Assembly (NCBI RefSeq): GCF_006345805.1
Contig: NC_043017.1
Location: forward strand, 21,700,001-21,764,000
Reading direction: 5' to 3'
DNA: 64,000 nt
From: Octopus sinensis
Taxonomy: Eukaryota
Shown here: in pieces, positions 2,835-37,311 of the stretch
Position numbering within the stretch: the first letter of the stretch is position 1
Layout of the letters: each line of letters starts with the position of its first letter
Notes under the pieces: generated by a model
The model's database searches: none
Seen by the model: the letters and a program-made list of their open reading frames with translations, nothing else
Told to the model about the DNA's origin: nothing
Translations under genes and position numbers: made by a program

Positions 2835-2985
2835 TCGAAAAATACCTTAGGAATGAGAACCCAAGTTCGAAATTTCCCTAAGACACCTGATGAAGGCTGG
2901 GGGGTATATCAGCTGAAATGTTGTGTTAACAACAAACAAGATGAGGACAAATATCTATCAAATGTAAATAATGTAAATAACGTAT
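2617..2985 (+). mobile_element. tRNA(Ser-like)-headed SINE with internal (AAT)n and hammerhead-bearing tail, copy 1
   Basis: A box tggtgtagtgg, anticodon-arm-like gggctactaaccc, B box gagttcgaatc, then (AAT)n, then gacac-CTGATGA-a-ggctg..cagct-GAAA-tg-tt-gtgtt; a homologous copy lies at 44581-44858. Confidence 0.85.
2882..2927 (+). ncRNA. Minimal type-I hammerhead ribozyme motif
   Basis: Stem I gacac/gtgtt, core CTGATGA 2887-2893, stem II ggctg/cagct, GAAA 2915-2918, stem III reduced to a 2-nt TG (ancestral CG inferred). Confidence 0.65.
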
Positions 2986-3219
2986 ATAAATATATATATA
3001 TGATATAATATAATATAATATAAATAATATATATATGCCTATATACATACATATATGTACATACCTATATATATATATATATGTATATATACATGCATAT
3101 ATGGGTACAGGACACCAAAAACACGTGAACAAAATGAGAAAGAAGACAGGCAACATCAAGAACATTCCCTTCATCTGTTGTTCCCTGTTTCATCTACTCC
3201 TCGTTTCAATATATATATA

Positions 3220-3250
<31 letters not shown>

Positions 3251-3496
3251 ATTTTGAATATATTTACCACCAGATAACTAAAATTATACTTGCTACTGAA
3301 GGGTTAAAATCATACCAAAACATTGGGTCTTGTGGTCTGCTGATGTTGCTTGCAGCTTGGGTTGATGTATTCTTTTTCAATATAAAATCTATTGAGAGAA
3401 ATTTTTCTCTGAAACAAATTCTTGCTGTGAGTGCATTTCCTGTTCTAATGTACAACAACATGTTAAGAATATATGCACACATCTCTATAAATGCAT

Positions 3497-3530
<34 letters not shown>

Positions 3531-3816
3531 CACAATGCATATTCATTAACTAATTGTAGTTATTGGACAGTCGTGGCTAGAGTTGATGCTGTGAAATTTA
3601 CTACTTCACTGGTATGTGTATTCTTCATCCTGTACAAAGGGAAACAATATCAGCCTCGGCGGGATTTCCATACAATATGCAAAAAGTCGTAGCAAATACC
3701 ATAAGGTATTTTGTCTAATACACTCACCAGTTTTATCATCAACCACATACTCATATACGTGCATGGTTAACATGTGTATATAAGATATATGTGTGTGTGT
3801 GTGTATTTGTGAATGG

Positions 3817-3859
<43 letters not shown>

Positions 3860-5536: not shown

Positions 5537-5539
<3 letters not shown>

Positions 5540-5729
5540 CGGAGATGTACTTGCATAGCAAGTGATTTGATCTGAGATTGTGTGCTGGAATGAAAACAAT
5601 TGCAGCGTGGAAGGTGTTTGTAAGCCATTCAAGAAACACACAAAAGCCGTTCGATTCACTTCAACATTAAGTTTAATTTGTCAAAATATTTTCGTCGCTA
5701 TAAGACCGCGACCTGATCACTGACAAAAT
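5537..5729 (-). mobile_element. Short non-coding element with G3:C8-variant hammerhead, copy 1
   Basis: About 190 bp homologous to 36925-37124 (opposite strand); 3' end abuts (TA)n; HHR topology at 5677-5727. Confidence 0.8.
5677..5727 (-). ncRNA. Hammerhead-like motif with swapped core (GUGAUCA)
   Basis: Minus strand reads TTTGTCA GTGATCA G GTCGC ggtcttata GCGAC GAAA ATAT TT TGACAAA: 7-bp stem I, 5-bp stem II, palindromic stem III. Confidence 0.65.
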
Positions 5730-7267: not shown

Positions 7268-7565
7268 AATGTGGTTTAATAGAAAAATGGAGATTAGAAA
7301 CAGTTGTGAGGCAGACAATATATCTTGCACTTTAAAGTTGACTTTGTTTTATCATTTAAGTTCAGATCCCACCAGGATAGGCCCTGCCTTTCAAATTCCT
7401 ACGGTCGATCGATAATATATATGCCAATCAAGTACACAGGATGGTTTAATTAATAATAACGATTCTACCCTGCTTCCTGGATCTTTGTTAGAAATCTATA
7501 TTTTAGGAATCAAATGGAAATTTAGGGAAAAGGTGAGGAGAAGGGGAAGTGAAGGAGAGATAAAA

Positions 7566-7616
<51 letters not shown>

Positions 7617-7809
7617 AATGAGTAGGAAGATAGGTTACGTGGGAGTAATAGGTTGGTTGGTGGGTGGGTGGGTGGGTTATAAACAAATACTTTGTGGTAG
7701 GAGTAAGACGATGGGAAGGAGTGGGAGGAAGCAGATGAAAGGAAGAAGGGCGAATCTGGTGAAAGAAGGTAAAAGGACACGGGTCATGTGGAGAAAGAGG
7801 GGGACGAAC

Positions 7810-8810
7810 ACACACATGCACACATATGCACACTTACGCACACATGCACACACACACACAGACACACATACACCTATGTGTGCACAGACATGTAAGCACA
7901 CAAACACATCATGTGTGCATGTGTTTAATACAAACATGCATTCTCACATGCATGTACACACACATACATACATGCATGCACACATACATAGTAACACATA
8001 TACATACATATGCACATAAACACATACATACATATGTACAACAGGCACACTCATAGATAGCACGCACATTCATACACAACACACACACGCACACACACAC
8101 ATATTCACTCATGGACAACACACACACCCATCAATAAACATGTGTACACAACATGCACACTGATACACACACATATACACAGCACACACACATTCATCTA
8201 CATAAGAACACATGCACATATGCACATGTATGTGCATACACATGCACACATACATGCATGCACAATTTACATGTAAACACATTCGTGCACATAAGTGCAT
8301 ACGCATGCATGCACACATGCAGAGATGTGCACAGTAAATACAGATGCATGACACACCACACATGCATAACACACACATAGCAAAATGGGCACTCACACAC
8401 AGGTACACTTGCATACACAAATATGCATGCACACACATGTATCCATATACACACATGCACATACATATATGTATATAAGCATGTACAACACATATATGCA
8501 TAATACACACATATACATGCTTACACATATGCATGCACATGCACACACACCTCACACACACACATATATATATAAACACACACATGCAAAACGCACACAA
8601 ACACACACACACAAAGATACACATGCACACAACACACACACATGCACACAACACACACACATGCACACAACACACACACATGCACACAACACACACACAT
8701 GCACACAACATGCACACAACACACACACATGCAAACAACACACACACATGCAAACAACACACACACACTTTCACATACATACTCATGCACACACACACAC
8801 ACACACACAA
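7810..8810. repeat. (CA)n-derived microsatellite/minisatellite field
   Basis: CA/CATG repeats including ~17-bp units cacaacacacacacatg at ~8625-8765. Confidence 0.9.
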
Positions 8811-15465: not shown

Positions 15466-16015
15466 AATTTGGACATTTTTATTCATGGTGGTTGAACACA
15501 CCATTTTATGCTCCGGGGGCAAGTGTAACAAATTTTAAGCTGCAGCTATGGTAACAAGAGACAAACCCAAAATACAGACGAATGTAAAATACTGTCACTG
15601 CAAGTTAAAAATTGACCGAAGACAGGTCACTATCATAGATGTCAATATATATAAATAACAGGGTTAAAAATCTGCTGAAATTACAGTATACATTTAATGT
15701 ACATCATATATATGTATGCAATTTATGGTTGTAAAAGTACACAGTAAGTGAGAAAGAAAAAAAAAGAGAAAAACATCGTGCTGTATGCAACTGAATAACA
15801 AAGAAAAGCAAGTTATACAATATTTGCTAATTCTAAAATCTGTTGGCAGTAAAATTCACAAGGTTTTTTTTTTTCTTTTTGATACGCATACACTGCTGAA
15901 AGTAAATGAGATCTGCATGGTTTTTCACCTCCTCTCTCGCTCTCACTCCCTCATGCACACACACACACACACACACACACATGCACGCACACACATTCAT
16001 ACAGTTTTTTTCTCA

Positions 16016-17095
16016 AGCTGGCAGAATTGATAGAAAATTGTAAAATGTGCTGTATATTAATTTTTTCTGGCTCTTTATATTCTGAGCTCAAATCCTACAG
16101 GTGTCTTTCATCCCACAAGGGGCAATAAAATGAGCTATTTTAACTTTTTCTGGCTCTATATTCTGAGCTCAAATCCTGCTGGTGACTTTTAACCCTTTAA
16201 GGGGCAATAAAATGAGCCATATTAATTTTTTCTGGCTCTTTATATTCTGAGCTCAAATTCTGCTGGTATCTTTCATCCCACAAGGGGCAATAAAATGAGC
16301 TATATTAATTTTTTCTGGCTCTTTATATTCTGAGCTCAAATCCTGCTGGTGTCGTTCATCCCTTAAGGGGCAATAAAATGAGCCATATTAATTTTTTCTG
16401 GCTCTTTATATTCTGAGCTCAAATTCTGCTGGTATCTTTCATCCCACAAGGGGCAATAAAATGAGCTATATTAATTTTTTCTGGCTCTTTATATTCTGAG
16501 CTCAAATCCTGCTGGTGTCGTTCATCCCTTAAGGGGCAATAAAATGAGCCATATTAATTTTTTCTGGCTCTTTATATTCTGAGTTCAAATCCTGCTGGTG
16601 TCTTTCATCCCTTAAGGGGCAATAAAATGAGCTATATTAATTTTTTCTGGCTCTATATTCTGAGTTCAAATCCTGCTGGTGTCTTTCATCCCTCAAGGGG
16701 CAATAAAATGAGCTATATTAATTTTTTCTGGCACTATATTCTGAGTTCAAATCCTGCTGGTGTCTTTCATCCCTTAAGGGGCAATAAAATGAGCTATATT
16801 AATTTTTTCTGGCACTATATTCTGAGTTCAAATCCTGCTGGTGTCTTTCATCCCTTAAGGGGCAATAAAATGAGCTATATTAATTTTTTCTGGCACTATA
16901 TTCTAAGTTCAAATCCTGCTGGTGTCTTTCATCCCTTAAGGGGCAATAAAATGAGCTATATTAATTTTTTCTGGCTCTATATTCTGAGTTCAAATCCTGC
17001 TGGTGTCTTTCATCCCTTAAGGGGCAATAAAATGAGCTTGATGTAAATGATTTCCCGTCTAAACTTCTGGCTTTGTGCTTAAATCAGAAACAATT
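16016..17095 (+). repeat. 12-unit 81-83 bp tandem array amplified inside a family B SINE
   Basis: caataaaatgag recurs at 16123, 16205, 16288, 16371, 16454, 16537, 16620, 16701, 16782, 16863, 16944 and 17025; the SINE head agctggcagaat precedes the array and the SINE tail ctggctttgtgcttaaatcagaaacaatt follows it. Confidence 0.95.
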
Positions 17096-17171
17096 GTCAG
17101 AAGTTTATCATTATGAAGGAGGCTGAAATTCTGAACTTTTGAAGAAATGAAAAAGGGGATTTCTAGATCTA

Positions 17172-19991: not shown

Positions 19992-20137
19992 GTTATACGA
20001 ATGCCTTTTTTACCCAACTTATGGATTTTTAAATGACTTACACACACACACTGACTTACACACACACCCACACATGTGTGTGTGTGTGTAAGTCATTTAA
20101 AAATCCATAAGTTGGGTAAAAAAGGCATTCGTATAAC
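19992..20137. repeat. Perfect ~60-bp inverted repeat with short spacer
   Basis: gttatacgaatgcc..aaatgacttacacacacacac (19992-20051) is the exact reverse complement of 20078-20137. Confidence 0.95.
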
Positions 20138-36917: not shown

Positions 36918-37311
36918 GTATGCAGCACGGATTTTTGTCAGTGAACAGGTCGCTGTCTTAAAGTGATGAAAATATTTTGACAAATTAAGCTTAAATGTTG
37001 AAGTGAATTGAACGGCTTTTGTGTGTTTCTTAAATGGCTTACAAACACCTTCACGCTGCAATTGTTTTCGTTTCAGCACACGTTCTCAGATCAAATCACT
37101 TGCTATGCATGTACATCTCCGTAATATATATATATATATGCATGTATGTATGTATATATGATGGGCATCTTTCAGTTTCTGTCAACCAAGTCCACTCACA
37201 AGGCTTTGGTTGATCCAAGGCTATAGCAGAAGATACATGACTAAGGTGCCATGCAGTGGGACTGAACCAGGAACCATGTAGTTTGGAAGCAAGCTTTTTA
37301 CCACACAGCCT
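36607..37311 (-). mobile_element. SINE family A split by a nested hammerhead element
   Basis: Tail 36607-36830 and head 37160-37311 are separated by (TA)n containing the insert 36925-37124. Confidence 0.85.
36925..37124 (+). mobile_element. Short element with G3:C8-variant hammerhead, copy 2
   Basis: 36934-36984 reads TTTGTCA GTGAACA G GTCGC tgtcttaaa GTGAT GAAA ATAT TT TGACAAA; homologous to 5537-5729. Confidence 0.8.

What the first reader, a model, noticed from the sequence alone, without database searches (positions are those of the whole stretch)
5677..5727. Natural G3:C8-swapped hammerhead core in a two-copy element (second copy 36934-36984)
Seen: both copies read TTTGTCA-GTGA(T/A)CA-G-GTCGC...G(C/T)GA(C/T)-GAAA-ATAT-TT-TGACAAA. 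The core is G3-U-G-A-N-C8-A instead of C3-U-G-A-N-G8-A, and the only core position differing between copies is the free position 7. Established: C3 and G8 form a tertiary Watson-Crick pair in the active HHR fold, and compensatory swaps can rescue activity. Inference: the double change, with intact stems I and II, suggests selection for catalysis. Standard CUGANGA searches would miss this family.
Basis: partly seen in the sequence, partly recalled or inferred. Interest (0 to 1): 0.8.

Follow-up and report, generated by a model that had tools for sequence, protein, structure and literature searches.

The report
Swapped-core hammerhead in Penelope-like retroelement
Both 51-base copies are end fragments of a Penelope-like jumping gene whose thousands of copies carry a hammerhead-shaped RNA motif with two paired core letters swapped (G3:C8 instead of C3:G8); related elements in the same genome keep that pair with other letters, so it is likely a working, slow self-cutting RNA, though cutting is untested.

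Summary
Observation confirmed, but copy 1 is on the minus strand and copy 2 on the plus. The motif is a minimal type I hammerhead (7-bp stem I, bulged G, 5-bp stem II, palindromic AAUAUU, U17). The "two-copy element" is the ~209-nt pLTR end of a Penelope-like element (PLE) with at least 6,155 motif matches in G000. A complete copy (L631) has the motif in both pLTRs, 4,361 nt apart, the first 92 nt before an RT + GIY-YIG ORF. G3:C8 is the family consensus. Homologous motifs in related families read C3:G8 (family B and 20 old copies with the same flanks) and U3:A8 (family C), with compensated stem II pairs; a distant PLE family reads A3:U8. That cross-family covariation, not the two-copy comparison, supports selection; inserted copies decay neutrally. 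Cleavage is untested, and copies show no 5' ends piled at the cut site. Rfam misses it. I found no natural G3:C8 in the papers I could search; Lünse 2017 was unreadable. This scan has noted G3:C8 before in phages and protist PLEs. New variant of a known kind.

The parts
5537..5728 (-). Copy 1: solo, 5'-truncated pLTR end (element positions 17-209) of a Penelope-like element; 3' end abuts (TA)n
   Evidence: homology to both pLTRs of complete copy L631
5677..5727 (-). Minimal type I hammerhead: stem I 5727-5721/5683-5677; core G3-A9 5720-5714; bulged G 5713; stem II 5712-5708/5698-5694; GAAA 5693-5690; palindrome AATATT 5690-5685; U17 5684; predicted cut between 5684 and 5683
   Evidence: sequence, fold, descriptor; cut site inferred from hammerhead numbering
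5539..5628 (-). First 30 codons of the element's RT-endonuclease ORF (MAYKHL...), carried inside the pLTR
   Evidence: same start at L631:3757
36920..37124 (+). Copy 2: solo pLTR end (element positions 4-209) within (TA)n; 1-nt deletion shifts the ORF-start frame
36934..36984 (+). Minimal type I hammerhead, G3 36941, C8 36946, U17 36977; stem II with two G-U pairs from C>T decay; predicted cut between 36977 and 36978

Best explanation
The two motifs are retrotransposed pLTR-end fragments of a Penelope-like element whose minimal hammerhead has a natural G3:C8 core pair, and the motif likely cuts slowly after U17 when two copies pair through the AAUAUU palindrome, possibly helped by the element's protein. 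Shown: each pLTR holds the motif 92 nt before the AUG; the complete element has two same-strand motifs 4,361 nt apart; copies end at two fixed points ~57 nt apart within the first 30 codons and often carry an inverted partial copy (PLE tail and inversion). Inferred: a read-through RNA brings both motifs together; helix III forms between them; G3-C8 replaces C3-G8 and holds the 2'-OH of residue 8 in place; double cleavage would release a ~4.4-kb unit. Inferred: reverse transcription starts inside the ORF start and mostly copies uncut RNA, giving the abundant ~200-nt solo copies. The swap is one event in this family's ancestor; the window's copies are neutrally decaying passengers.
For: All other core letters canonical; bulge between 9 and 10.1, G10.1-C11.1 and palindromic linker as in PLE min-HHRs. 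pLTR-ORF-pLTR copy L631 and a 1,042-aa open frame in L624. Three families forming one clade (99/98; 45-61% protein identity) have G3:C8, C3:G8 and U3:A8, with compensated stem II pairs, 60 of 60 cells paired. 20 older copies have C3:G8 with the same GTCA / GGTCGC flanks. A distant PLE family has A3:U8 (204 matches). 7 of 9 motif clusters in 1.14 Mb of fetched DNA are Watson-Crick at 3:8. The motif lies upstream of the AUG, so the main ORF does not constrain it. C3G/G8C partly rescues cleavage of a PLE hammerhead in vitro (PMC11167929).
Against: No cleavage data. Only 2 of 76 copies have a 5' end within 3 nt of the predicted cut; 43 of 76 contain the whole uncut motif. A longer palindromic duplex that sequesters A13/A14/U17 is predicted more stable than the double-hammerhead model (-32.4 against -27.0 kcal/mol; no tertiary terms). 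Covariation rests on three lineages; 245 of 500 shuffles reach the observed number of doubly changed pairs. Sister family B has C instead of A at position 9, so this clade tolerates core changes. Min-HHRs cleave weakly in vitro (PMC4209133), and cleavage was dispensable for insertion of the anole element PAc in vitro.
Confidence: 0.65

Rival explanations
1. The hammerhead fold is kept as a binding or folding site for the element's protein, or as a 5'-UTR control element; the 3-8 pair is needed for shape and cleavage is negligible.
For: No 5' ends piled at the cut; uncut RNA is the main template in PAc and its hammerhead cut only with protein present; A9C in family B; competing palindrome duplex.
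Against: Catalytic-core letters (G12, G5, A6, A13, A14, U16.1) are invariant across the three families although flanks are about 50% alike; G3:C8 is known to retain partial activity in vitro.
Confidence: 0.2
2. The motif is a dead relic: two chance substitutions in one master element happened to be complementary and were amplified.
For: The swap is a single event needing two transversions from C3:G8 or U3:A8; copy number is not independent evidence; copies decay neutrally.
Against: No other core decay; both stems intact with double-sided changes against sister families; family consensuses show four different pairs, all Watson-Crick; full-length open ORFs show recent activity.
Confidence: 0.12
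3. The ~209-nt unit is a non-LTR retrozyme that spreads as a small circular RNA.
For: Size is near that of metazoan retrozymes; the two ends share a 6-nt inverted repeat.
Against: Only 2 head-to-tail junctions genome-wide, both split by (TA)n; the unit continues into a 3' UTR upstream and an ORF downstream.
Confidence: 0.03

Closest known systems
Minimal type I hammerheads (min-HHR) in pLTRs of Penelope-like elements (Cervera and de la Pena 2014, PMC4209133)
   Same: Position in the pLTR; bulged base between 9 and 10.1; G10.1-C11.1; palindromic linker for dimers; U17 is common there (supplementary Fig. S3); most copies solo or in inverted pairs.
   Different: G3:C8 core. The 56 representatives in Fig. 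S3 have C3 or U3, and the only covariation named is U3-A8.
Hammerhead of PAc, a Poseidon PLE of Anolis (PMC11167929)
   Same: pLTR includes the ORF start; two RT start sites give a tail; genomic copies come from uncut RNA; engineered C3G/G8C partly rescues.
   Different: PAc is naturally C3:G8 and its ORF starts in stem II; here the motif is 92 nt upstream of the AUG, and the protein has a C-x3-C-x2-C linker of Neptune/Nematis type.
Natural U3:A8 hammerhead variants (Perreault et al. 2011, PMC3088659)
   Same: Natural covariation of the 3-8 pair.
   Different: U3:A8 is two transitions from C3:G8 through a U-G wobble; G3:C8 is a purine-pyrimidine flip.
Non-LTR retrozymes (PMC7229834)
   Same: Short high-copy repeat with a type I hammerhead in an animal genome.
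   Different: No tandem arrays; linked to its own RT-endonuclease ORF.

Membership tests
Minimal type I hammerhead of PLEs | Core U4 G5 A6 N7 A9, G12 A13 A14 A15.1, U16.1 H17 in order | tested here: met
Minimal type I hammerhead of PLEs | Literal consensus C3 and G8 (CUGANGA) | tested here: not met
   G3 in 43 of 45 and C8 in 39 of 46 sampled copies; no Rfam hammerhead match at E<=10
Minimal type I hammerhead of PLEs | Watson-Crick complementarity of positions 3 and 8 | tested here: met
   G:C here, C:G and U:A in sister families
Minimal type I hammerhead of PLEs | Helices I and II, bulge 9/10.1, G10.1-C11.1, palindromic helix III linker | tested here: met
Minimal type I hammerhead of PLEs | Located in the pLTR of a PLE | tested here: met
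   L631: motif in both pLTRs
Minimal type I hammerhead of PLEs | Self-cleavage 3' of H17 | not testable with these tools
   only assembled contigs were offered
Penelope-like element, endonuclease-bearing | One ORF with RT and C-terminal GIY-YIG endonuclease | tested here: met
   1,042-aa frame with RT motifs read by eye; Pfam GIY-YIG E 3.6e-4, below cut-off; no Pfam hit on two full family-A ORFs, RVT_1 E 0.002 on the family-B ORF
Penelope-like element, endonuclease-bearing | pLTR direct repeats, inverted 5' partial copy, tail at one end, (TA)n targets | tested here: met
   ~650-nt pLTRs 94% alike; 39 of 76 copies with an inversion, 29 of those ending at 147-153; 71 of 93 ending at 209
Neptune versus Nematis clade | Placement with named reference elements | tested here: inconclusive
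   C-x3-C-x2-C linker fits both (PMC8557442); no named references in the tree
Non-LTR retrozyme | Head-to-tail tandem repeats, no ORF | tested here: not met

The most novel reading that the evidence does not exclude
A recently active animal PLE relies on a catalytically competent G3:C8 hammerhead, and PLE families in one genome use all four Watson-Crick pairs at 3:8. G3:C8 and A3:U8 hammerheads would then be an overlooked class, and core swaps may tune cleavage rate or keep co-resident PLE families distinct.
Probability: 0.4. Interest if true: 0.7.

Novelty: new variant of a known kind. Interest (0 to 1): 0.52.

Why it matters
The C3-G8 tertiary pair was shown by crystallography and engineered swaps; in the papers I could read, the only natural covariation is U3:A8. 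Here homologous motifs give a natural series (C:G, U:A, G:C, and A:U in a distant family), ready for a rate comparison. It also bears on an open question, whether PLE hammerheads are selected for cleavage, and shows that CUGANGA descriptors and Rfam miss thousands of motifs, so some PLEs scored as lacking a hammerhead may have one. The effect on hammerhead chemistry is modest, since the swap was known to work partly in vitro.

Tried and rejected
Rfam: whole window swamped by microsatellite look-alikes, no hammerhead among the 150 of 536 rows listed; no hammerhead in the element alone. Retrozyme reading rejected. Five same-region copy pairs from C1 held no element ORF between them. PLEs found by GIY-YIG search next to family copies (L061, L062) are other families. 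No PLE ORF in the window. No PDB sequence match for the ORF. Sequencing runs: no RNA holder listed on record, contigs only, so nothing on expression, strand or RNA ends. No pile of 5' ends at the cut. Source of the GAG before ATG in 10 of 52 junctions not found. First tree attempt failed on two empty rows and was redone. IMG/VR: G3:C8 pattern 39 stretches, G3:G8 control 21, C3:G8 about 2,100 (estimate); 2 of 39 and 1 of 21 pass my stem test, so no enrichment; the 121 loci of the looser pattern were not examined. Paper searches gave no natural G3:C8. Lunse 2017 and Hammann 2012 were not held.

Full report
Observation. The quoted sequence is present at 5677-5727 on the minus strand and at 36934-36984 on the plus strand. 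It has the layout of a type I hammerhead: 7-bp stem I, G3 U4 G5 A6 N7 C8 A9, one bulged G, 5-bp stem II, GAAA, a palindrome AAUAUU from A15.1 to U16.1, and U17. Stems I and II are the predicted fold. A descriptor with positions 3 and 8 free finds only these two motifs in the window and 16 in 200 shuffled windows. Rfam finds no hammerhead in the element at E up to 10. The window shows no PLE ORF.

Family. G000 is a 2.72-Gb, microsatellite-rich genome. The 17-mer spanning the core has 6,155 exact matches (inverted partial copies count separately). A similar 21-nt pattern with a non-G at position 3 has 153, and none of the 100 listed has G8. I sampled 93 of the first 100 listed (all on contig C1) of 4,760 matches to a 3'-end tag, and merged 16 and 3 copies with shared junctions, leaving 76. 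G3 occurs in 43 of 45 copies covering it, C8 in 39 of 46, A7 in 44 of 46. Mismatch rates, with CpG and subfamily sites left out, are 15/429 in the core, 24/810 in stems and 245/6188 elsewhere: inserted copies are not under visible selection. In 4 of 4 laid runs (4 of 22 listed; coded organisms A-D; contigs only) no other letter reaches 5% at positions 3 or 8.

What the element is. 71 of 93 copies end at element position 209; 39 of 76 carry an inverted partial copy, 29 of which end at 147-153. This is the tail-and-inversion pattern described for PLEs (PMC8557442, passages; PMC11167929, passages and first part of the main text). Some copies extend 5' through a splice-acceptor-like stretch (inferred, untested) into a ~1-kb UTR and an ORF end. 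L631 (G000:C2:32068400-32078399) is complete: pLTRs at about 3155-3848 and 7492-8150, 94% alike; motifs at 3665 and 8026 on the same strand; AUG at 3757; ORF to 6968 with one frameshift. L624 has a 1,042-aa open frame with RT motifs read by eye, a C-x3-C-x2-C linker and a GIY-YIG end. Pfam support is weak. The linker fits Neptune or Nematis; I could not separate them. The ~209-nt unit is thus the end of the 5' UTR plus the first 30 codons, and the window's copies are solo truncated insertions in (TA)n.

Is the swap selected? Two related families lie in one clade with this one (A + (B + C), 99/98; 21 rows, midpoint root). At the same place behind the ORF, family B has C3:G8 (34 of 34 pattern matches; C at position 9 in most), family C has U3:A8 (16 of 17) and family A has G3:C8 (124 of 140). 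On an alignment of 10 motifs, all 60 cells of the 3-8 pair and five stem II pairs are paired, and three pairs change on both sides. These are only three lineages, and 245 of 500 shuffles reach that count of changed pairs. The canonical core in the same flanks, GTCACTGANGAGGTCGC, has 20 matches (control 1). All 20 were fetched; they are old, decayed relatives, 40-57% alike to family A over aligned columns, many with homologous stem II, GAAA and tail. C3:G8 is therefore the likely ancestral state, although I found these by asking for C3:G8. A distant PLE family has A3:U8 (204 matches within 2 mismatches). In 1.14 Mb of fetched DNA, 7 of 9 motif clusters are Watson-Crick at 3:8 and two are C:A, against 3 hits in 5 shuffles. 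The motif is outside the main ORF, so that ORF does not explain it.

Mechanism. Established: C3 pairs with G8, the 2'-OH of residue 8 is essential, and C3G partly rescues G8C (PMC8495972, passages); the same partial rescue was shown in a PLE hammerhead, which cut only with its protein present. Min-HHRs are built to work as dimers and cleave weakly (PMC4209133, abstract, results, discussion and supplement parts 1-2 of 3). Inferred: the two pLTR motifs of one transcript pair through AAUAUU and cut after U17, which would free a ~4.4-kb unit. Against strong activity: only 2 of 76 copies start near the cut while 43 hold the whole motif, as in PAc, and a longer palindrome duplex is predicted more stable than the active arrangement. 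I put weak but real, selected cleavage at 0.65, a non-cutting structural role at 0.2, a dead relic at 0.12 and a retrozyme at 0.03.

Novelty. Natural U3:A8 is published (PMC3088659, section 8). Ten searches gave G3-C8 only as an engineered variant (PMC3884650, passages). The 56 min-HHR representatives of Cervera have C3 or U3. I also saw passages of PMC7229834, PMC6765202, PMC11014351, PMC10085705 and PMC6155905, the first part of bioRxiv 10.64898/2026.07.22.740005, and a term search of one supplementary file of PMC8557442 (its hammerhead file S2 was not seen). Lunse et al. 2017, the largest survey of PLE hammerhead variants, and Hammann et al. 2012 were not readable and could hold G3:C8. Earlier notes of this scan report G3:C8 in phages and, with an extra core base, in protist PLEs; these are unchecked, but I found one convincing phage example myself (L376). 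What this case adds is an otherwise perfect core, high copy number, a complete host element and homologous C:G and U:A relatives. Verdict: new variant of a known kind, interest 0.52.

Noticed in passing
L076:5880-5919 (+); G000, 204 matches: A PLE family with an A3:U8 hammerhead-like motif (6-bp stem I, very short stem II, palindrome ACCGGT, C17) about 300 nt behind a GIY-YIG ORF; I did not search the literature for A3:U8 specifically.
   Followed up: partly
L221:1574-1623 and L221-L250, L633-L641: Sister family B, with long open ORFs, has C3:G8 but C at position 9 and a non-palindromic helix III linker; one copy has the canonical A9.
   Followed up: partly
L376 (IMGVR_UViG_3300032397_001285:16279-16428, minus strand): A full type I hammerhead with G3:C8 (stems of 4, 6 and 5 bp, C17) in a viral contig; L429 is a full-stem G3:G8 motif.
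   Followed up: partly
window 2879-2930 (+): A C3:G8 minimal-hammerhead-like motif in another repeat; it passed one descriptor but not the stricter ones.
   Followed up: no
L085, L087, L118 and 13 more loci on C1: 16 of 93 sampled matches share one identical inverted junction starting at element position 28, so one insertion was re-amplified inside another repeat.
   Followed up: no
L065/L070 and L071(-)/L072 families: The first has a C3:G8 motif about 500 nt behind the ORF; no motif was found within 2 kb behind the second, a candidate for a further core variant.
   Followed up: no
5' junctions of solo copies: 10 of 52 junctions read GAG before ATG instead of the element's own CAG or TAG; source unexplained (short spliced exon or template jump).
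   Followed up: partly
window 15995-17119: Tandem array of 81-83-nt units.
   Followed up: no
window 19997-20132: A long near-perfect hairpin (weak Rfam MIR6135 match, below cut-off).
   Followed up: no
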